This document shows, one piece after another, positions 35,994-47,641 of a stretch of DNA of 64,000 nt. The notes under the pieces were generated by a model. That model was given only the letters and a program-made list of their open reading frames with translations, was not told the origin of the DNA and did not search any database. The stretch spans positions 32,328 to 96,327 of the forward strand of contig CAZNOW010000002.1 of NCBI GenBank assembly GCA_964574915.1, given 5' to 3'. This DNA is from an uncultured Candidatus Saccharibacteria bacterium. Its GTDB lineage: Bacteria > Patescibacteriota > Saccharimonadia > Saccharimonadales > UBA4665. The translations under genes were made by a program, and so were the position numbers. Position 1 is the first letter of the stretch. Each line of letters begins with the position of its first letter.

Positions 35994-38837
35994 CTAAATC
36001 CTGGCCGTTGAGGTTTTACCGTGAACTTCCCGGTGAAGTTTAATCACGGCTAGGCGGGTGTGCTTACGGGTATGCCGTTGGAATAAACGGATGCCCAGAT
36101 AAATCGTGGCCGCTCCGATAGCCGTCAGCCAATCGGCCAAGTTTAACGATCCGGTATGGAAAAATGACTGGATGACGGGGTTGTAGAGGATATTGAGTAG
36201 GCAAAATAGCGATATACCAAAAGCAATCAGCAGCTTTTTGTTAGACCATAGAAATTTGGTGAACAAGCTGTTGTGCTTATCGGCTCTGACAAGCAGCAAA
36301 TTCATAAATTGGCAGAGCACGATTGTTACAAAGGCCAAAGTGACAGCTTGGGCATACAAACTGCTGCTGGAATCGATGTATGCCGGACTTAATCCTCTGC
36401 GGGTAAAAAATAACAAAAAATTAATGTAAGCCAAAACGGCCGATAAAAAGCCAAACAAGATAAACTCCCTCACGGCCGCATTGTTAATGACGTGATCTTT
36501 ATAACGGCTAGGGTGATTATGCATTAAATTGCCCAGCGGTTTATCCCAGCTGAGAGCCGAGAGCGGGAAGACTTGGATAAGGGCATTCATAGCTAATACC
36601 TGGATGGCCGTAATCGCCATTGGAACATGAAACATTACTTGACCGACCAAACTAAATAGCACGGCGAAAAATAGGCTGCAGTTATCGGTCAAAGCACAGC
36701 CGATAGTCTTTTTGAGGTTATTGAAAGTAATTCGTCCCTGTTCAATGGCCGAAACCAGGGCGCTGATATGATTGTCGAGCAGTGTAATTTCAGCGGCATC
36801 GTTTGTAGCATCGGTACTAGTTTTAGCTAAGGCGACGCCGATATCGGCCTGTTTGAGAGCCGGCAGATCAATCAAACTTTCGCCGGTGACTGTCACGATT
36901 TGGCCGCTGGCTCTGGCGATCTCAACAATTCGCAGTTTATCTTCAGCGGTAGCTCGGGAAAAGATGACGCCGCCGCCATCGATAAGTTGCATAATCTGGC
37001 TATCTGATAAGGCCGCCAATTCGTCGGCAGTCACCACTTTAACCTGGTTTTGGTGGGCTGCCAGGTGGGCTTTAACTGCTAAGGCTTTAGCACTAGCCGG
37101 ATAATCACTGGTGATTACAGAAACCTGGATATATGCCCGTTGTGCGGTGGATATAGCCGCCGGAACAGCTTCGCCCAGCGGATCGTTAACGCTAATCATG
37201 CCTAAGAAAATTAGATTTTGTTCGGCTTCGCTAAAATCCAGTTTTTCCAGATTAGTAGAAACCGGCAGGATACGGTAGGCTAAAGCAATATTATCCAGAC
37301 CGTTTTGCTCTTCGGTTTCTTGATAATGACTGAAATAGCTTTGATCGGCAGTGGTCAAACGCCGGACATGGCCGTGATCCCAAAGTTTGGTACTGTGTTC
37401 CAGCACCACCTCGGGCGCGCCCCTAACAAAAACCATGACTTGATCACCTGAACGTCTGACTGAACTCATCAGCTGACGGCTGGCATCGTAAGGGAATTCC
37501 CGTAATTCGGGATAGGTCAGGGGTAATCTCTCGGTGTTTAGCCCGGCCTTACGGGCTACGGTTAAAATAGCCCCTTCGACCGGCTCGCCAATCACATACC
37601 AGTCCTGGTGCTGGGCATCGGGTTGGCTGACCTTGGCATTACAAGCCAGTACTCCGGTAGTAAAAAAGAGCGTCATGGCTTCCAAGGCTTGATTGGTAAG
37701 CGGTTTTTGCTGATCGTTTAAGATAAATCCGCTAGGTTCATAACCAGTACCGCTAGTCCGATAAGGCGTGCGTCCGATCAGTAGCTGATTGACGGTCATT
37801 ACCTTATTCGACAGCAGGCTGGATTTATCAGTCAGGATAATATTAGTCGCACCGAGTGTTTCTAGAGCTGCCAGCTGATTAACTGAGACCCGAGATTTAA
37901 CTAAACTGCGGGCGGTTTGAGTCAAGCTAAAAAAGAGCTCGGCAAACAGGCCGCTGGGGAAGATAGCTACGCCGAATGCTATGGCAAATAGTAAGGCCGT
38001 TTTCAGTCCTAGATTGGCTTGCCAGGCTACTACGGCCAGGATAGCCGCTAAAACCAATGAACCTTGGAAAAGACGAACGGTCAGCTGCTTCATCTCAGCT
38101 TGCCAGGACGATGTATTACCGGGCATGATCTGACATAGCGAAGCCACCCGGCCAAGTTCAGTGTGCATTCCGGCGCCGATAACAATGCCGTGAGCTTTGC
38201 CGCTAGCTACCGTGGTCCCCATGAAAACCAAATTATGCCGGTTGGGCAGCGGCACGGCGACCGACAAAGCATGGGCAAACTTACGACAGGGGCCATACTC
38301 GCCGGTTAATGCATAATCGTTCGTACTAAGTTCGACTTCATCTAAAATGCGTAAATCAGCCGGTACTAGGTCGCCCTCTTCGATAACCACGATATCGCCT
38401 AAGACCAGTTTGGCGGAATCGATTGTTTTGGTGTCGCCGTTACGGATGACTTTGGCCCGGGGCGAAATTAAATCATCCAATTTTTCAAATAAGGTTTCCG
38501 CTTTCTGATCCTTGTTAAAACCAAGAATCATAATTACAAGGGAAATGAGGATTAGCAAAAAAGCGGTTTGGCTAGCTTGTAAATAGACAGCCCCGACAGT
38601 ACTGATCAGAAAAACAATAACCATTATATTTTTGAATTGGCTGAAAAAGGTCTCTAGCGCGGAGTGATGACGGACCTGATATAACAAATTCGGTCCCAGT
38701 TGGTCATAGCGGCGAGCAGCTTCGGCATTAGTTAGCCCCATCTTATGGCTCCGCAATTCAGCAATAACATCCGCCGGCAACATCCGGTAGTAATTTAAAC
38801 GCCTATCTGATCCCACCGTATTCATCTTCAGGCTCAT
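35994..38837 (-). CDS. P-type ATPase homolog (P2-like, about 10 TM helices) with degenerate catalytic motifs
   Basis: Overall P-type architecture (cation-ATPase N-terminal LTNAEAARRY, RGAPE, 10 TM helices). However DKTGT reads DKSSL (37815..37829), TGD reads TSD, and GDGVND reads GESLID (36867..36884). Start moved to the ATG at 38835..38837 to avoid overlap with polA. Confidence 0.75.
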   Translation of the reverse strand: MSLKMNTVGSDRRLNYYRMLPADVIAELRSHKMGLTNAEAARRYDQLGPNLLYQVRHHSALETFFSQFKNIMVIVFLISTVGAVYLQASQTAFLLILISLVIMILGFNKDQKAETLFEKLDDLISPRAKVIRNGDTKTIDSAKLVLGDIVVIEEGDLVPADLRILDEVELSTNDYALTGEYGPCRKFAHALSVAVPLPNRHNLVFMGTTVASGKAHGIVIGAGMHTELGRVASLCQIMPGNTSSWQAEMKQLTVRLFQGSLVLAAILAVVAWQANLGLKTALLFAIAFGVAIFPSGLFAELFFSLTQTARSLVKSRVSVNQLAALETLGATNIILTDKSSLLSNKVMTVNQLLIGRTPYRTSGTGYEPSGFILNDQQKPLTNQALEAMTLFFTTGVLACNAKVSQPDAQHQDWYVIGEPVEGAILTVARKAGLNTERLPLTYPELREFPYDASRQLMSSVRRSGDQVMVFVRGAPEVVLEHSTKLWDHGHVRRLTTADQSYFSHYQETEEQNGLDNIALAYRILPVSTNLEKLDFSEAEQNLIFLGMISVNDPLGEAVPAAISTAQRAYIQVSVITSDYPASAKALAVKAHLAAHQNQVKVVTADELAALSDSQIMQLIDGGGVIFSRATAEDKLRIVEIARASGQIVTVTGESLIDLPALKQADIGVALAKTSTDATNDAAEITLLDNHISALVSAIEQGRITFNNLKKTIGCALTDNCSLFFAVLFSLVGQVMFHVPMAITAIQVLAMNALIQVFPLSALSWDKPLGNLMHNHPSRYKDHVINNAAVREFILFGFLSAVLAYINFLLFFTRRGLSPAYIDSSSSLYAQAVTLAFVTIVLCQFMNLLLVRADKHNSLFTKFLWSNKKLLIAFGISLFCLLNILYNPVIQSFFHTGSLNLADWLTAIGAATIYLGIRLFQRHTRKHTRLAVIKLHREVHGKTSTARI

Positions 38838-38910
38838 TATACACTTTGGGATAGCCTGTTGCGCGAGGTTTAAATAGAGCCGTTTAGGTGACTGAGCTAT
38901 ACTAAATAAT

Positions 38911-41583
38911 ATGAATGAGCCATCAGAGAAGCGTAAGAAGTTTGTCATTATTGATGGCAAAAGTGTTTTTTACCGCGGCTATTACGCCATGCCGAATTTA
39001 ACCACCAAAGAAGGCATCCCAACCGGAGGAGTATTCGGTTTTGCTACCATGGCACTAGAAGTTCTGCGCCGATTGAAACCAGATTATGTGGCAGTTGCTT
39101 GGGACAAGCCCAAAACCAATATCCGCCGCCGGCTGAAGTTATACCCGGAATATAAAGCTGGCCGCAAATCGCCGCCGCCGGATTTTTATGAGCAGGTTCC
39201 GATTCTTCAGGAACTGCTGAAAGCTTTCGGCTGGCCGCTATACGAAATGGATGATTACGAATCCGATGATCTGATGGGGACATTGGCCGTTCAGGCTACT
39301 AAAAAAAAGATTGAAACTTTGCTGGTCACCAGTGATCTGGACATGCTACAGCTGGTTGATCCTTATGTGCATGTCTATGTTTTAAAACACGGGCTGAGTA
39401 ATATCGATCTGTATTCGCCGGAAAGTTTTACCGCTAAATACGGTCTGAAAGCTGAACAATTTTTAGATTTTAAAGCCCTTAAGGGTGATTCTTCAGACAA
39501 TATACCGGGTGTTCCCGGGATCGGCGAAAAAACGGCCATGGAACTGCTGCTGCAGTTTAAAACCCTTGACGGAGTCTATGACAATCTGGCGCTGATTAAA
39601 CAATCGGTCCGCGATAAATTAGTTGCCGGTAAAAAACTCGCTCAGCTGAGTAAAGAATTAGCCCGGATTTGGACGGATGCGCCCTTGAAGCTTAATTTAA
39701 CAGAAGTCGACGGCAGTAAAATCCAGCCGGCTAAGTTACAGGAGCTGTTACAGAAATTGGAGTTTCGCACCCTGGCTCGCCAATTGCCGGAAATTATGCA
39801 AGTAGCGATTTCTAATCATAACGAGACGCTGGCTAAAAGCGAGCATCATTTGCCGGTCGGTAAATGCGAGGTCATCGATAGCGACTCCAAACTAGCCGCA
39901 CATAAACTCAAAGACATTGCGCAACTTTACGTTTACTCCTGGTCAAAAGGGGAGCACGGCAACGGTCCTTTGATGCTTTTACTAAGTCCAGACGGGTTAA
40001 CGGTTTACGCCCTTGATCTGAAACGGCTTGACCCCAAAAAGGTCATTAGTTTACTGCAGACGGCACCGCCGCTGATCGGGCACGACGTTAAAGCAACACT
40101 CGAAGTACTGCTGGCCTTAGGTAGCGCTAAACTGCCGGCAGTTGCTCACGATGTGCTCATAGGCGCTTTTATTTTAAATTCATTACGCCGCGAACAAACC
40201 CTGACCGATTTAGCGGAAGCAGATTTGAAATATCAAGGGCCGGCTTTTGAAAATCTTGAGCCGTCACAATATGTTACCCGGGCGCCAGAAATTATAGCTG
40301 TCATTAAGACGCTATACGAACAGCAGCTCAAAGAGCTTCACTCCATTCCGAAATTAACCGATCTGGCCCGAGATATCGAATGGCCGGTTATACCGGTACT
40401 GGCCCGGATGGAATACGAAGGTATTCAGCTGGATACGGCCTATTTAAAGCAAATGGCCGGGGAAATTAATAAAGATATTGCCAGTATTGAACGGCAAATC
40501 TATGTTCAAGCCGGCGAAGTATTTAATATCGGCAGCCCCAACCAGTTAGCCGACATTTTATTTAACAAATTGCATTTAGGTCTGTCCACCGCCGGGATTA
40601 AAAAGGGTAAAACCGGTTACAGTACTGCCGCCAGCGAGCTGGATAAGCTCAAAGGCCAACACCCGATTATTGAATTAATCAGCCAGTGGCGGGAAGTCAC
40701 TAAACTGAAAAATACTTATGTCGATACTCTGCCGCTTTTAGTTGATAAAAAATCCCGGCTCCATACCACTTTCAATCTGACAATTGCGCAAACCGGACGG
40801 CTTTCCAGTACCGACCCCAATCTGCAAAATATTCCGGTCCGAACCGATCTGGGCCGAAAAATTAGAACTGCCTTTGTGGCTGGGCCGGGCTATAAACTGG
40901 TTAGCGCTGACTATAGCCAGTTTGAGCTGAGGCTCAGTGCGGCTATGAGCCAAGATAAGCAGCTGATCGATATGTTTAATCGGGATGTTGATATCCACTC
41001 CGCGACCGCGGCTTTAGTCTACGGCCGTCAGCTAGAAGACGTCACCAAACAAATGCGCCGGACCGCCAAAATAGTTAATTTCGGCATTTTATACGGTATG
41101 AGCCCGCACGGTTTGTCGGTAGCCACTGGCATGACTTACGAGCAGTCCCAACGTTTCATAACCGAATATATGGCTATCCGTAAACCGTTGATCGCCTACC
41201 TTGATAACTTAAAAGAGCGGGCCCTTAAAGACGGATACGTGGAAACGCTTTTCGGACGCCGCCGGCCGATGCCGGATATTCATTCGTCTAATTATGCCGT
41301 CCGGGCTGCTGCCGAAAGGGCCGCCATGAATATGCCGATTCAAGGAACGGAAGCGGACCTGATGAAATTAGCTATGACCAAGATCGATAAGCAATTGACG
41401 GAGTTAGACAGCAATTGCCGCATGTTACTGCAGATTCATGATTCTATTTTGGTGGAATGTCCGGAGAAATATGCCGACAAAGTGGCCGGCTTACTGAAAC
41501 TGACAATGGAAAACATCTATCCTCAACTGCCCATTAAGTTAACTGTCGATACCAGTATGGGCAATAATTGGGGCGAGTTGTAA
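38911..41583 (+). CDS. polA: DNA polymerase I
   Basis: 890 aa. 5'-nuclease domain (GGVFGF, SDNIPGVPGIGEKTA) and polymerase motifs (DYSQFELR, RRTAKIVNFGILYG, QIHDSI). Confidence 0.95.
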   Translation: MNEPSEKRKKFVIIDGKSVFYRGYYAMPNLTTKEGIPTGGVFGFATMALEVLRRLKPDYVAVAWDKPKTNIRRRLKLYPEYKAGRKSPPPDFYEQVPILQELLKAFGWPLYEMDDYESDDLMGTLAVQATKKKIETLLVTSDLDMLQLVDPYVHVYVLKHGLSNIDLYSPESFTAKYGLKAEQFLDFKALKGDSSDNIPGVPGIGEKTAMELLLQFKTLDGVYDNLALIKQSVRDKLVAGKKLAQLSKELARIWTDAPLKLNLTEVDGSKIQPAKLQELLQKLEFRTLARQLPEIMQVAISNHNETLAKSEHHLPVGKCEVIDSDSKLAAHKLKDIAQLYVYSWSKGEHGNGPLMLLLSPDGLTVYALDLKRLDPKKVISLLQTAPPLIGHDVKATLEVLLALGSAKLPAVAHDVLIGAFILNSLRREQTLTDLAEADLKYQGPAFENLEPSQYVTRAPEIIAVIKTLYEQQLKELHSIPKLTDLARDIEWPVIPVLARMEYEGIQLDTAYLKQMAGEINKDIASIERQIYVQAGEVFNIGSPNQLADILFNKLHLGLSTAGIKKGKTGYSTAASELDKLKGQHPIIELISQWREVTKLKNTYVDTLPLLVDKKSRLHTTFNLTIAQTGRLSSTDPNLQNIPVRTDLGRKIRTAFVAGPGYKLVSADYSQFELRLSAAMSQDKQLIDMFNRDVDIHSATAALVYGRQLEDVTKQMRRTAKIVNFGILYGMSPHGLSVATGMTYEQSQRFITEYMAIRKPLIAYLDNLKERALKDGYVETLFGRRRPMPDIHSSNYAVRAAAERAAMNMPIQGTEADLMKLAMTKIDKQLTELDSNCRMLLQIHDSILVECPEKYADKVAGLLKLTMENIYPQLPIKLTVDTSMGNNWGEL

Positions 41584-41585
41584 GA

Positions 41586-42161
41586 ATGACCAGAGCGATC
41601 ATCTTTGATTGCTACGGAGTGTTAGTAACGGACGGGTTGTTACCGTTTATCGATAAATATTTTGATGGTCATATCAAAAACAAACAGCAAGCACTAGCTT
41701 TAATTGCCGATGTTGACCGGGGCCAGCTCAGCCAAACTGATTTCAATCATCAATTAGCTACTCTGGCGGGCCTAAGTGAGGTGGCAGTTGAAAGCGAGAT
41801 ATTACAGCATCGGCCAAATCAACCGTTACTTGACTACATTAAAATCTCCCTCAAGCCTAGGTATAAAATCGGCGTGCTATCTAACGCCGGCAGTAATCGG
41901 CTCAATGAATTGCTGGGTGACGACCATGTTTCGCTGTTTGATTCGGTCACTTTATCTTACGAATCGGGCTTTATTAAACCGGATCCGGGGGCATTTGCCA
42001 CAGCTGCCAACCGCCTTGGTGTCAAACCGTCAGGATGCATTTTTATTGACGATCAAGCTAGGCACTGTGCTGGTGCCCGCACCATCGGCATGCCAGCTAT
42101 TCTTTATCGGTCGTTTGATCAAATGAAAAACGACTTAGGACAATTATTAGATAATAACTAA
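41586..42161 (+). CDS. HAD-superfamily hydrolase
   Basis: MTRAIIFDCYGVL (DxxG variant of motif I), LSNAG, K and FIDDQ motifs. Start taken at the ATG at 41586. Confidence 0.7.
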   Translation: MTRAIIFDCYGVLVTDGLLPFIDKYFDGHIKNKQQALALIADVDRGQLSQTDFNHQLATLAGLSEVAVESEILQHRPNQPLLDYIKISLKPRYKIGVLSNAGSNRLNELLGDDHVSLFDSVTLSYESGFIKPDPGAFATAANRLGVKPSGCIFIDDQARHCAGARTIGMPAILYRSFDQMKNDLGQLLDNN

Positions 42162-45886: not shown

Positions 45887-47641
45887 ATGGAAAACGCAGA
45901 ACAGCAAGTTATTGAACGCTTGAAACAGGCTCGTAATATCTTAGTGACCGTTCGGAATAATCCCAATGTCGATTTGCTTAGCTCCTGTATCGGGCTGGCC
46001 CTCGGGTTGGATAAAATGGAGAAACACGTGGCCGCTGTTTTTAGCGGTGAAGTGCCGAGTACTTTGGAATTTTTAAAGCCCGAAGAAACTATTGAGCAAA
46101 ACCCAGACAGTTTGCGAGATTTTATAATTGCCTTAGATAAATCCAAAGCTGATAAACTGCGCTACAAAGTCGAAGATAAAGTAGTTCGCATTTTTATAAC
46201 GCCATATAAAACTAGCCTAAGCCAAGAAGATTTAGAATTTAGCCAGGGTGATTTTAATGTTGACGCTGTCATCGCACTAGGGGCGCATGAGCAGCAAGAA
46301 CTTGACCAAGCTATCACTACCCACGGCCGAATCCTGCATGACGCCACAGTTATTTGTATCAATAACACCGCCAACGGCAACCTCGGGTCAATCAATTGGC
46401 AAGATACCAGTGCCAGTTCAGTGTCTGAGCTAGTTACCATGCTGCTCAAAGATCTGGACAAAAGCGTCCTAGACGAGCAAATTGCGACCGCACTACTAAC
46501 CGGGATTGTGGCCGAGACAGCCCGGTTTAGTAACGAAAAAACTACGCCTAGAACTATGAGTTTAGCTGGGGACTTAATGTCAGCCGGGGCCAACCAGCAA
46601 TTAGTTGCCACCCAATTAGAAGAGGGAGGTGACTTAAAGACTGCACAGCCCAATACTAACCCAACCGATAACCAATCATCTGCTACTCCAAGCCCCGCCG
46701 GCGAATTGCCAAAACCCGAAGATGGAACATTGGAAATTAGTCACCAATTACCTGAAGTACCGGCTCAGCCCGGTCCAGCCTCTGAAGTTCCGGACCGGGA
46801 TATGTTGAATATTCCGGAGCCCCCGAAAATCTCGGGCGTATATAGTACATCGACCAACGATAACCCGTTCAGTGCCGAGTTGGAAAAGGAAAATGATGAT
46901 GATACTCCGACCGCCGGACACGATTATCTGATTGATGAACCAGCAGTGCCTGGCAGTATACCGTCAACGAGTAGCCGGGTACAGCCGAGTAATGCTAATC
47001 CGTTCGATCTACCGCCCCAAGAACCTACCGAACCGTTAATGTCGCAAGCAGGTGTAAGTCCGACGGCTCAATTTGGTCAGCCGACCGAATTACCCGAGCC
47101 ACCTTTACCAACATCTTCTCCCGCCTCGCCAGCCAATAACCCATTTGCCCCCGCAGCTCCGTACTCACCGGCAGCACCGTTAACATCTGCTAGTGATACC
47201 GAAACGCTGGAAAAAATCGAACAAGATGTGCATAGTCCGCACTTAAATGAAGAACAGGTCACAGCCAAAACTGATGTGGATAATGCCCGGCAGGATGTAC
47301 TTCAAGCCCTGCAAAGCAGTAAAGAACCCCTAAAACCGGTTGACTCACTCGGTGCCAGCCCACTAGGCAGTCCGTTACATGCTGATCAGGACCCAACTAC
47401 GGCTCTCCATCATCATGAAGTGGAAATCGACCAAGACGGTAATTTAACGACTAAAAAAATTACTCCACCAAGCGAACTAGTCCCCCCGGAAGATGACAGT
47501 AATATTAACGGTAATCCGCCGCTAGATATGCCTTTACCCCCTGAAGTCCCGGGGCAGCCTCCGATGCCGCCAGCCGCTCCTAATGATTCCACCCCGCCTC
47601 CGACCGTACCGCCGCCATTCATGCCGCCACATAACTTTTAG
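45887..47641 (+). CDS. DHH-fold (NrnA-like) homolog lacking the DHH motif, with a long proline-rich tail
   Basis: The N-terminal ~250 aa parallel NrnA blocks, but DxD reads NPNVD and DHH reads NNT (46361..46369). The C-terminal ~330 aa are P/S/T-rich. Confidence 0.55.
   Translation: MENAEQQVIERLKQARNILVTVRNNPNVDLLSSCIGLALGLDKMEKHVAAVFSGEVPSTLEFLKPEETIEQNPDSLRDFIIALDKSKADKLRYKVEDKVVRIFITPYKTSLSQEDLEFSQGDFNVDAVIALGAHEQQELDQAITTHGRILHDATVICINNTANGNLGSINWQDTSASSVSELVTMLLKDLDKSVLDEQIATALLTGIVAETARFSNEKTTPRTMSLAGDLMSAGANQQLVATQLEEGGDLKTAQPNTNPTDNQSSATPSPAGELPKPEDGTLEISHQLPEVPAQPGPASEVPDRDMLNIPEPPKISGVYSTSTNDNPFSAELEKENDDDTPTAGHDYLIDEPAVPGSIPSTSSRVQPSNANPFDLPPQEPTEPLMSQAGVSPTAQFGQPTELPEPPLPTSSPASPANNPFAPAAPYSPAAPLTSASDTETLEKIEQDVHSPHLNEEQVTAKTDVDNARQDVLQALQSSKEPLKPVDSLGASPLGSPLHADQDPTTALHHHEVEIDQDGNLTTKKITPPSELVPPEDDSNINGNPPLDMPLPPEVPGQPPMPPAAPNDSTPPPTVPPPFMPPHNF

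What the first reader, a model, noticed from the sequence alone, without database searches (positions are those of the whole stretch)
35994..38837. Full-length P-type ATPase homolog with several degenerate catalytic motifs
The protein keeps the P2-type architecture: N-terminal cation-ATPase domain, about 10 TM helices and an RGAPE nucleotide-domain motif. However the near-invariant signatures are altered:
- DKTGT(L)T reads DKSSLLS (codons at 37815-37829).
- The hinge TGD reads TSD.
- GDGVNDAPAL reads GESLIDLPAL (36867-36884).
- DPPR reads DPLG.
- TGES reads TGEY.

The phosphorylated Asp is retained, but its neighbours and Mg-binding residues are not. The ORF is intact over about 950 codons. 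That argues for selection on a non-canonical function: a pseudo-enzyme, a channel-like protein, a regulator or altered chemistry.
Basis: partly seen in the sequence, partly recalled or inferred. Interest (0 to 1): 0.6.

Follow-up and report, generated by a model that had tools for sequence, protein, structure and literature searches.

The report
Dead ion pump kept by selection
This gene of an uncultured Saccharimonadales (CPR) bacterium encodes a full-length ion-pump look-alike that has very probably lost the residues for using ATP and binding ions, yet selection keeps it intact, and relatives have made the same change independently, so the pump body probably has a second, non-pumping job.

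Summary
The ORF (35994-38825, minus strand, 943 aa) has the full P2-type ATPase architecture. DKTGTLT reads DKSSLLS, TGD reads TSD and GDGIND reads GESLID. KGAPE reads RGAPE and DPLR reads DPLG.

The four other species of the genus have canonical motifs at the same polA/rpoD locus. The change is specific to this gene: 151 lineage-unique replacements at genus-conserved sites against 11 in the sister species. Fourteen flanking genes together show about 131 against 126.

It is not neutral decay:
- There is no indel and no stop (0 of 400 neutral simulations stayed open).
- The replacements are conservative.
- Relaxation is uneven across domains.
- The -10 box is conserved.

The same conversion occurred in other genera of the family, at the same locus. 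One pair that lacks the catalytic Asp has dN/dS of about 0.14. About 30 further degenerate cluster representatives exist.

Best reading (0.7): a non-pumping pseudo-enzyme retained by selection, role unknown.

No paper describing bacterial dead P-type pumps was found. Earlier unchecked notes of this scan report dead P-type pumps on other DNA (Poribacteria, gut Clostridia, Dojkabacteria).

The parts
35994..38825 (-). CDS of the degenerate P2-type ATPase homolog (943 aa plus stop). It is the positional ortholog of canonical pumps in its congeners.
   Evidence: ORF list, Pfam and NCBIfam, synteny with G001, start codon set by ortholog alignment.
38836..38841 (-). TATAAT -10 box ending 10 nt before the ATG. 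It is conserved in canonical and degenerate orthologs and implies a very short leader.
   Evidence: That it functions as a promoter is inferred, not shown.
38784..38825 (-). N-terminal peptide MNTVGSDRRLNYYR. This family-specific motif is kept in nearly all dead relatives.
38295..38306 (-). A-domain motif TGEY (family consensus TGES). The catalytic Glu is kept.
37947..37961 (-). M4 ion-site segment FPSGL (family consensus IPNGL). The downstream AEVNIT reads AELFFS.
37809..37829 (-). Phosphorylation loop DKSSLLS (family consensus DKTGTLT). Asp and Lys are kept; Thr, Gly, Thr and Thr are replaced.
37473..37493 (-). N-domain ATP loop PYDASRQ (family consensus QFDAGRK). Q->P, F->Y and K->Q are the same three changes seen in the independent dead clade D.
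37410..37424 (-). RGAPE (family consensus KGAPE).
37173..37184 (-). DPLG (family consensus DPLR). The Arg is lost.
37104..37112 (-). Hinge motif TSD (family consensus TGD).
36936..36947 (-). AEDK (family consensus PEDK). The conserved Lys, SERCA K684 equivalent, is kept.
36867..36884 (-). GESLID (family consensus GDGIND). The Mg-site Asp is Glu, Asn is Ile, and the last Asp is kept.
36672..36689 (-). M5 segment TDNCSL (family consensus TDNAGE). The membrane Glu is lost.
36573..36590 (-). M6 segment MNALIQ (family consensus IDVIAQ). The membrane Asp is Asn.
35997..36089 (-). C-terminal basic tail RLFQRHTRKHTRLAVIKLHREVHGKTSTARI. None of its 8 genus-invariant sites is changed, and the LH.EVHGK..A.I signature is kept in most dead relatives.

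Best explanation
The gene is the positional ortholog of a canonical P2-like cation pump of family-level Saccharimonadales. In this one species it has stopped being a pump.

What has changed:
- The phosphorylation loop, the TGD hinge and the Mg-binding GDGxND motif.
- Three ATP-phosphate-binding basic residues.
- Both membrane carboxylates.
Together these very probably prevent the ATP-driven phosphoenzyme cycle and ion occlusion.

The protein is nevertheless still made as a full-length, correctly folded ten-helix membrane protein, and purifying selection still acts on it. Selection is strongest on the N-terminal peptide, the A domain, the N domain, helices M7-M10 and the basic C-terminal tail. 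The retained role is therefore inferred to be ATP-independent, such as a scaffold, partner or regulator acting through those parts.

Shown: the motif losses, the gene-specific acceleration, the non-neutrality, and the recurrence and selection in relatives.
Inferred: loss of catalysis (from established mutagenesis and structures of SERCA, PMCA and Na,K-ATPase), expression, and the nature of the role.
For: Motifs and ion-site residues are changed, while 119 homologs and all four congeners are canonical.

Established roles of the affected residues: the gamma-phosphate is contacted by K684, K352, T625, G626 and T353, and Mg2+ is held by D351 and D703 (PMC11208427, read).

Acceleration:
- The ML terminal branch is 0.50 against 0.07 for the sister.
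- There are 151 against 11 unique changes at 641 genus-conserved sites. Fourteen flanking genes give about 131 against 126.

Non-neutrality:
- Neutral drift to the same divergence needs about 381 mutations and gives 10.5 stops on average. None of 400 runs stayed open.
- Observed replacements are conservative: +0.42 against -0.49 +/- 0.13.
- All five orthologs are exactly 943 aa with no gap.
- The share of genus-invariant sites changed differs by domain. It is 43-50% in M1-M4 and the P1 segment. It is 9-17% in the N-terminus, A, N and M7-M10, and 0% in the C-tail (chi-square p = 4e-8).
- TM hydropathy is kept.
- TATAAT lies 10 nt before the ATG, as in the orthologs.

Fold: the AF2 model is confident (pLDDT 85.9; TM 0.87-0.88 to SERCA E2).

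Precedent at the same locus:
- Clade D (G233 = P0109, G232, P0193, P0199, P0200), genus g118 and G270 are all degenerate, full length, and one copy per genome.
- P0199 against P0200 gives dN 0.14-0.15, dS about 1.0, omega about 0.14.
- The same conserved sites are released in the independent lineages (hypergeometric p 1e-4 to 4e-7).
Against:
- Synonymous sites between this species and every congener are saturated. No dN/dS can therefore be given for this lineage itself, and non-neutrality rests on a simple simulation.
- This is the only dead copy in its genus and no closer relative exists in the protein collection. Persistence through a speciation is not shown for this lineage.
- Asp, Lys, TGE, Thr and Asp of TGD, K684 and the last Asp of GDGxND are kept, so residual phosphorylation is not excluded.
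- The pump is dispensable in many relatives: 174 of 310 family genomes have no match at E <= 1e-60. That fits loss in progress.
- No partner or role is identified.
Confidence: 0.7

Rival explanations
1. This is a gene on its way out. The pump became dispensable in this species and is decaying. The open frame reflects weak residual selection, for instance against toxic truncated membrane proteins, or too little elapsed time, and not a retained function.
For: - The dead state is a singleton within its genus.
- Many relatives lack the gene altogether.
- The chance of change is almost flat across conservation classes: 24-31% of sites at 80-100% conservation.
- CPR genomes are reduced.
Against: - 0 of 400 neutral simulations stayed open; Poisson P is about 3e-5 for stops alone.
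- There is no indel across 943 codons.
- Replacements are conservative.
- Relaxation is strongly uneven between domains.
- The -10 box is conserved.
- Dead orthologs persist through speciations in other genera, with omega about 0.14.
Confidence: 0.12
2. It is still an active pump with altered chemistry or substrate. The retained Asp, Lys, TGE Glu, K684 and last Asp of GDGxND still allow phosphoryl transfer, and the remodelled membrane site carries a different cargo.
For: - Those key residues are retained.
- T->S in DKT and D->E in GDG are chemically mild.
- The rapid change in M1-M6 could reflect a specificity shift.
Against: - At least 55 positions that are 99% or more invariant in the family are replaced. 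They include Gly and Thr of DKTGT, Gly of TGD, Asn of GDGxND, Lys of KGAPE, Arg of DPLR and the ATP-loop Lys.
- Both membrane carboxylates are gone and M4 is more hydrophobic.
- The same sites are lost in lineages that also lost the catalytic Asp.
Confidence: 0.08
3. It is a passive channel or facilitator. With the gating cycle uncoupled, the ten-helix domain conducts a solute down its gradient.
For: - The whole TM domain and its length are kept.
- From my own knowledge, P-type pumps can be converted into channels; palytoxin on Na,K-ATPase is the known example.
Against: - Polar and charged residues lining the pathway were replaced by hydrophobic ones: M4 N->S and NIT->FFS, M5 E->L, M6 D->N.
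- M1-M6 are the least constrained parts, which is the opposite of what a conduction pathway under selection would show.
Confidence: 0.05

Closest known systems
Canonical polA-adjacent P2-like ATPase orthogroup of Saccharimonadales (about 930-945 aa; G001-G004, P0003-P0100), uncharacterised
   Same: - Same locus (dnaG-rpoD / ATPase / polA).
- Same length, 943 aa without a gap.
- 60-67% identity to the congeners.
- Same N-terminal MNTVGSDKRLNYYR and C-terminal basic tail.
- Same TATAAT-10 nt-ATG upstream signal.
   Different: The window protein has lost DKTGT, TGD, GDGIND, the Lys of KGAPE, the Arg of DPLR and the M5 and M6 carboxylates. Its branch is about 7 times longer than its sister's.
P2A-type Ca2+/Mn2+ pumps (human SPCA1, 8iwp; Listeria LMCA1, 6zhf/9euq; SERCA1a)
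   Same: - Best sequence matches in the PDB, E about 1e-92.
- Same A/P/N plus ten-helix fold. The AF2 model has TM 0.87-0.88 to SERCA E2 and 0.81 to SPCA1 E2P.
   Different: - Only 22-26% identity.
- It scores 388 bits against a cut-off of 798 for the PMR1-type model.
- Even the canonical family has a different ion-site signature: M4 PNGL, M6 D...Q.
- The window protein lacks the catalytic and ion-binding residues.
Dead-pump lineages of the same orthogroup: clade D (G233 = P0109, G232, P0193, P0199, P0200), genus g118 (G321-G325) and G270
   Same: - Full-length ORFs of 913-943 aa at the same locus, one copy per genome.
- Degenerate catalytic motifs.
- The same classes of sites are released.
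- The N- and C-terminal signatures are kept.
   Different: - They are of independent origin. The window protein is sister to canonical G001, and PolA is about 70% identical to the clade D genomes.
- They are older and more eroded. Several have lost the catalytic Asp and carry a 17-aa P-domain deletion.
- The window protein is an early stage that still has Asp, Lys and TGE.
Pseudoenzymes and transporter-derived non-transporters in general. Examples from my own knowledge, not tested here: the yeast glucose sensors Snf3/Rgt2, UhpC, and the SUR subunit of K-ATP channels.
   Same: A catalytically or transport-inactive homolog kept by selection with its fold intact.
   Different: - Those examples come from other superfamilies and have known signalling roles.
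- No paper describing a bacterial non-catalytic P-type ATPase was found in four literature searches.

Membership tests
P-type ATPase superfamily (HAD-IC; TIGR01494, Pfam E1-E2_ATPase and others) | A, P and N cytosolic domains plus a ten-helix membrane domain; profile score above the curated cut-off | tested here: met
   TIGR01494 scores 150.2 bits against a cut-off of 62.3. Four Pfam domains are above their cut-offs. AF2 gives pLDDT 85.9 with TM 0.87-0.88 to SERCA.
P-type ATPase superfamily (functional enzyme) | DKTGT phosphorylation motif with the Asp nucleophile | tested here: not met
   It reads DKSSL(LS). Asp and Lys are kept; Thr, Gly and Thr are replaced.
P-type ATPase superfamily (functional enzyme) | TGD hinge and GDGxND Mg-binding motif; HAD Hydrolase model | tested here: not met
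   They read TSD and GESLID. PF00702 scores 17.3 bits against a cut-off of 26.4, whereas the record of every listed canonical homolog carries a precomputed PF00702 hit.
P-type ATPase superfamily (functional enzyme) | TGE dephosphorylation motif of the A domain | tested here: met
   TGEY: the Glu is retained and only the fourth residue is changed.
P-type ATPase superfamily (functional enzyme) | ATP hydrolysis with an aspartyl-phosphate intermediate | not testable with these tools
   This needs purified protein and [gamma-32P]ATP or an ATPase assay.
P2A/SPCA-type Ca2+ pumps (TIGR01522, TIGR01116) | Equivalog score above cut-off; the M4 PEGL Glu and the M5/M6 acidic and amide ligands | tested here: not met
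   It scores 387.8 against 798.3 and 289.9 against 703.4 bits. M4 is FPSGL, the M5 Glu is Leu and the M6 Asp is Asn.
Saccharimonadales polA-adjacent P2-like ATPase orthogroup | Positional orthology, tree placement, and shared N- and C-terminal signatures | tested here: met
   Synteny with G001. Sister to G001 with 96-100 support. The termini are conserved.
Pseudoenzyme (inactive homolog retained by selection) | Catalytic residues lost while the sequence remains under purifying selection | tested here: inconclusive
   The losses are shown. Non-neutrality is shown indirectly by simulation, absence of indels, conservative changes and domain heterogeneity. dN/dS for this lineage cannot be measured because dS is saturated. 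It was measured only in an independent dead pair, omega about 0.14.

The most novel reading that the evidence does not exclude
This P2-like pump family of Saccharimonadales may have a second, ATP-independent function. That function would be carried by its conserved N-terminal peptide (M.TVG.DKRLNYYR), its basic C-terminal tail (LQRHTRKH..AV.KLH.EVHGK) and the overall fold. Several lineages of these episymbiotic bacteria have independently switched the pump off while keeping this moonlighting role. The result is a radiation of fast-evolving 'dead pumps' that databases label as active cation ATPases. The window gene would be the youngest such conversion, with a canonical sister species as a natural control.
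Probability: 0.5. Interest if true: 0.75.

Novelty: new variant of a known kind. Interest (0 to 1): 0.6.

Why it matters
P-type ATPases are textbook enzymes whose signature motifs are treated as invariant. Annotation pipelines call every homolog a 'cation-transporting ATPase'.

Here a natural series runs from intact, to recently dead, to long dead, all at one conserved locus. It shows that the pump scaffold can outlive its chemistry under selection. It shows which parts are released first: the phosphorylation loop, M1-M4, and then the ion site. It shows which parts stay constrained: the termini, the A domain and M7-M10.

That gives a direct handle for finding a non-pumping role of a P-type ATPase fold, by comparing the G000 and G001 orthologs. 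It also flags a source of wrong transporter inventories in CPR metabolic reconstructions.

Tried and rejected
I used three-outgroup unique-change counts instead.
- dN/dS for the window lineage could not be obtained. Four-fold sites are saturated against every congener, at 28-38% identity.
- Closer relatives were sought. There is no protein between 67% and 100% identity in 5.8 billion clusters, and the 90% cluster holds only the same sequence with two alternative starts.
- An 'in-frame TAA' in the G009 ortholog, which I first noted as decay in a relative, was only the terminal stop. The ORF is 953 aa and canonical.
- Gene conversion from the dead clade D as the source of the changes was rejected. 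No 40-aa window is meaningfully closer to clade D than to G001; one window differs trivially, 0.45 against 0.40.
- Long-branch attraction as the cause of the P0109/P0193 grouping was rejected. PolA identities (81-85% within the group, about 70% to genus g1) and shared gene order support a real clade.
- A canonical paralog in the same genome was sought. Only a different, canonical 833-aa ATPase (30% identical) is present.
- Four literature searches for bacterial non-catalytic P-type ATPases gave nothing relevant.
Full report
**What is there.**
The ORF runs on the minus strand from 38960 to 35994. Alignment with orthologs puts the start at ATG 38825 (MNTVGSD..., 943 aa). That is the length all five species of the genus share, without a single gap. 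The same box at the same distance precedes every ortholog examined, canonical or degenerate.

Pfam finds Cation_ATPase_N, E1-E2_ATPase, Cation_ATPase and Cation_ATPase_C. The HAD Hydrolase model stays below its cut-off. NCBIfam places the protein in the P-type superfamily (TIGR01494, 150 bits against 62). It falls far below every equivalog cut-off; the best is PMR1-type, 388 against 798 bits. The nearest solved structures are SPCA1 and Listeria LMCA1. An AlphaFold model built on a 50-sequence alignment is confident (pLDDT 85.9, pTM 0.78). It superposes on SERCA E2 states with TM 0.87-0.88.

Residue-level alignments and translation of the coordinates give the following.

| Family consensus | Window protein |
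|---|---|
| TGES | TGEY (Glu kept) |
| DKTGTLT | DKSSLLS (Asp, Lys kept) |
| KGAPE | RGAPE |
| DPLR | DPLG |
| TGD | TSD |
| PEDK | AEDK (Lys kept) |
| GDGIND | GESLID |

- M4 IPNGLVAEVNIT reads FPSGLFAELFFS.
- M5 TDNAGE reads TDNCSL.
- M6 AIDVIAQ reads AMNALIQ.
- The ATP-loop Lys is Gln.

The residues concerned contact the gamma-phosphate and Mg2+ in P-type pumps (PMC11208427). The protein departs from the family consensus at 86 of 348 columns that are at least 95% conserved. The median for 119 homologs is 3.

**The change is specific to this species and this gene.**
The genome is a 1.19-Mb Saccharimonadales assembly. The four other species of the genus carry canonical orthologs at the same dnaG-rpoD / ATPase / polA locus.

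In ML trees the window protein is sister to G001. Its terminal branch is 0.50-0.52 substitutions per site, against 0.07 for G001. I counted sites where three outgroup congeners agree. The window protein has 151 unique replacements and G001 has 11. Fourteen flanking genes sum to about 131 against 126.

The genome holds no canonical paralog of this family. It has only an unrelated, canonical 833-aa P-type ATPase, present on two identical short contigs.

**It is not neutral decay.**
Four-fold sites are saturated against all congeners. The lineage is therefore old and dN/dS cannot be computed. Instead I simulated neutral point mutation from the G001 coding sequence until 24.8% of genus-invariant sites were replaced.
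- This needed about 381 mutations and produced 10.5 stop codons on average. None of 400 runs stayed open.
- Simulated replacements had mean BLOSUM62 -0.49 +/- 0.13, against +0.42 observed.
- No indel has been fixed in 943 codons.

The share of genus-invariant sites replaced differs strongly between domains (chi-square p = 4e-8).

| Region | Genus-invariant sites replaced |
|---|---|
| M1-M2 | 49% |
| M3-M4 | 43% |
| Stalk plus phosphorylation loop | 50% |
| M5-M6 | 29% |
| Rest of P domain | 27% |
| A domain | 17% |
| M7-M10 | 17% |
| N domain | 15% |
| N-terminal segment | 9% |
| C-terminal tail | 0% |

Helix hydropathy is kept or raised. Constraint on the pumping machinery has thus been lifted, while constraint on fold, length and several regions persists.

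**The same thing happened elsewhere in the family.**
Screening the homologs found P0109 (TGKN, DEIGPLT, QGTPD, TAG; ion site intact) and P0193 (catalytic Asp lost). A search with P0193 found P0199 and P0200. A survey of 310 family genomes found G233 (identical to P0109) and G232.

These form one clade, with 100% support at every node, next to canonical P0008. PolA identities (81-85% within the group, about 70% to the window's genus) show the clade is real and separate from the window's lineage. Two congeners by GTDB label, G230 and G231, are canonical.

P0199 and P0200 both lack the Asp and share a 17-aa P-domain deletion. They give dN 0.14-0.15, dS about 1.0 and omega about 0.14. The polA fragment of the same genome pair gives about 0.035.

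Four genomes of genus g118, and G270, are also dead. Within g118 the proteins are only 34-49% identical where PolA is 83% identical, yet all are open and 913-926 aa long. Every one of these proteins, dead or canonical, lies beside polA and rpoD. In the family survey every dead-pump genome has a single match.

A profile of the dead clade against 1.84 billion representatives returned about 30 further full-length proteins with all motifs degenerate. Most keep the N-terminal M.TVG.DKRL.YY(R/Q) and the C-terminal LH.E.HGK..A.I signatures.

The independent lineages release overlapping sets of conserved sites (p 1e-4 to 4e-7). They show the same domain pattern. They even share identical replacements in the ATP loop (Q->P, F->Y, K->Q). 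There is no sign of gene conversion.

**Interpretation.**
The best reading (0.7) is a pump ortholog that has lost catalysis and ion binding and is retained by selection as a non-pumping membrane protein. The window gene is a young, independent instance that still keeps Asp, Lys and TGE. The role is unknown. The parts that stay conserved in all dead lineages are the two termini, the A domain and M7-M10. These are the candidates for a scaffold or regulatory interaction; this is inference.

The rivals are:
- a gene in slow decay (0.12);
- a still-active pump with altered chemistry (0.08);
- a passive channel (0.05).

**Limits.**
- Selection in this very lineage is shown only indirectly.
- The number of independent origins beyond two is not resolved.
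- Four literature searches found no description of bacterial dead P-type pumps.
- Earlier notes of this scan, which are unchecked AI notes, report analogous dead pumps in Poribacteria, gut Clostridia, Giardia and Dojkabacteria. None matches these sequences.

Noticed in passing
window 41568-42161 (+): The HAD-like 197-aa gene after polA is only 36% identical to its positional counterpart in G001, while the neighbouring genes are 65-93% identical. It is either another fast-evolving gene or a non-orthologous replacement.
   Followed up: no
G000:C35 and G000:C37 (L002-L005): Two short contigs carry identical copies of a canonical 833-aa P-type ATPase (SGES, VPEAMP, DKTGTLT, GDGINDAPALK). They look like an assembly duplicate, and the genome's estimated contamination is 4.2%.
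   Followed up: partly
orthogroup (P0003-P0100; L056-L070): The canonical family is itself uncharacterised and below all NCBIfam equivalog cut-offs. It has unusual ion-site signatures: M4 IPNGLVAE, M5 TDNAGE, M6 AIDxxAQ, and DPLR instead of DPPR. A sister canonical subtype in genera g85, g43 and g4 has IPQGLPAE, TSNxAE and IDLxAE.
   Followed up: partly
window 38826-38841 (-) and orthologs: TATAAT ends exactly 10 nt before the start codon in all orthologs, with no evident Shine-Dalgarno sequence. This suggests near-leaderless transcripts.
   Followed up: partly
L021, L022, L026, L031, L064, L065, L071: In several dead-pump genomes an extra sigma-70-like gene (236-471 aa) sits between the ATPase-like gene and polA. 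In the window and in G321 and G322 it does not.
   Followed up: no
P0035, P0298 (metagenomic homologs): P0035 is otherwise canonical but reads YKTGT, with the catalytic Asp replaced by Tyr. P0298 has lost the catalytic motifs but keeps the ion-site residues, like P0109. Both may be very early stages of the same conversion; P0035 could instead be a sequencing error.
   Followed up: no
window 45887-47641 (+): The DHH-like protein flagged by another first-reader note shows balanced lineage-unique changes, 23 against 17 for G001. Whatever is unusual about it is shared by the genus and not specific to this species.
   Followed up: partly
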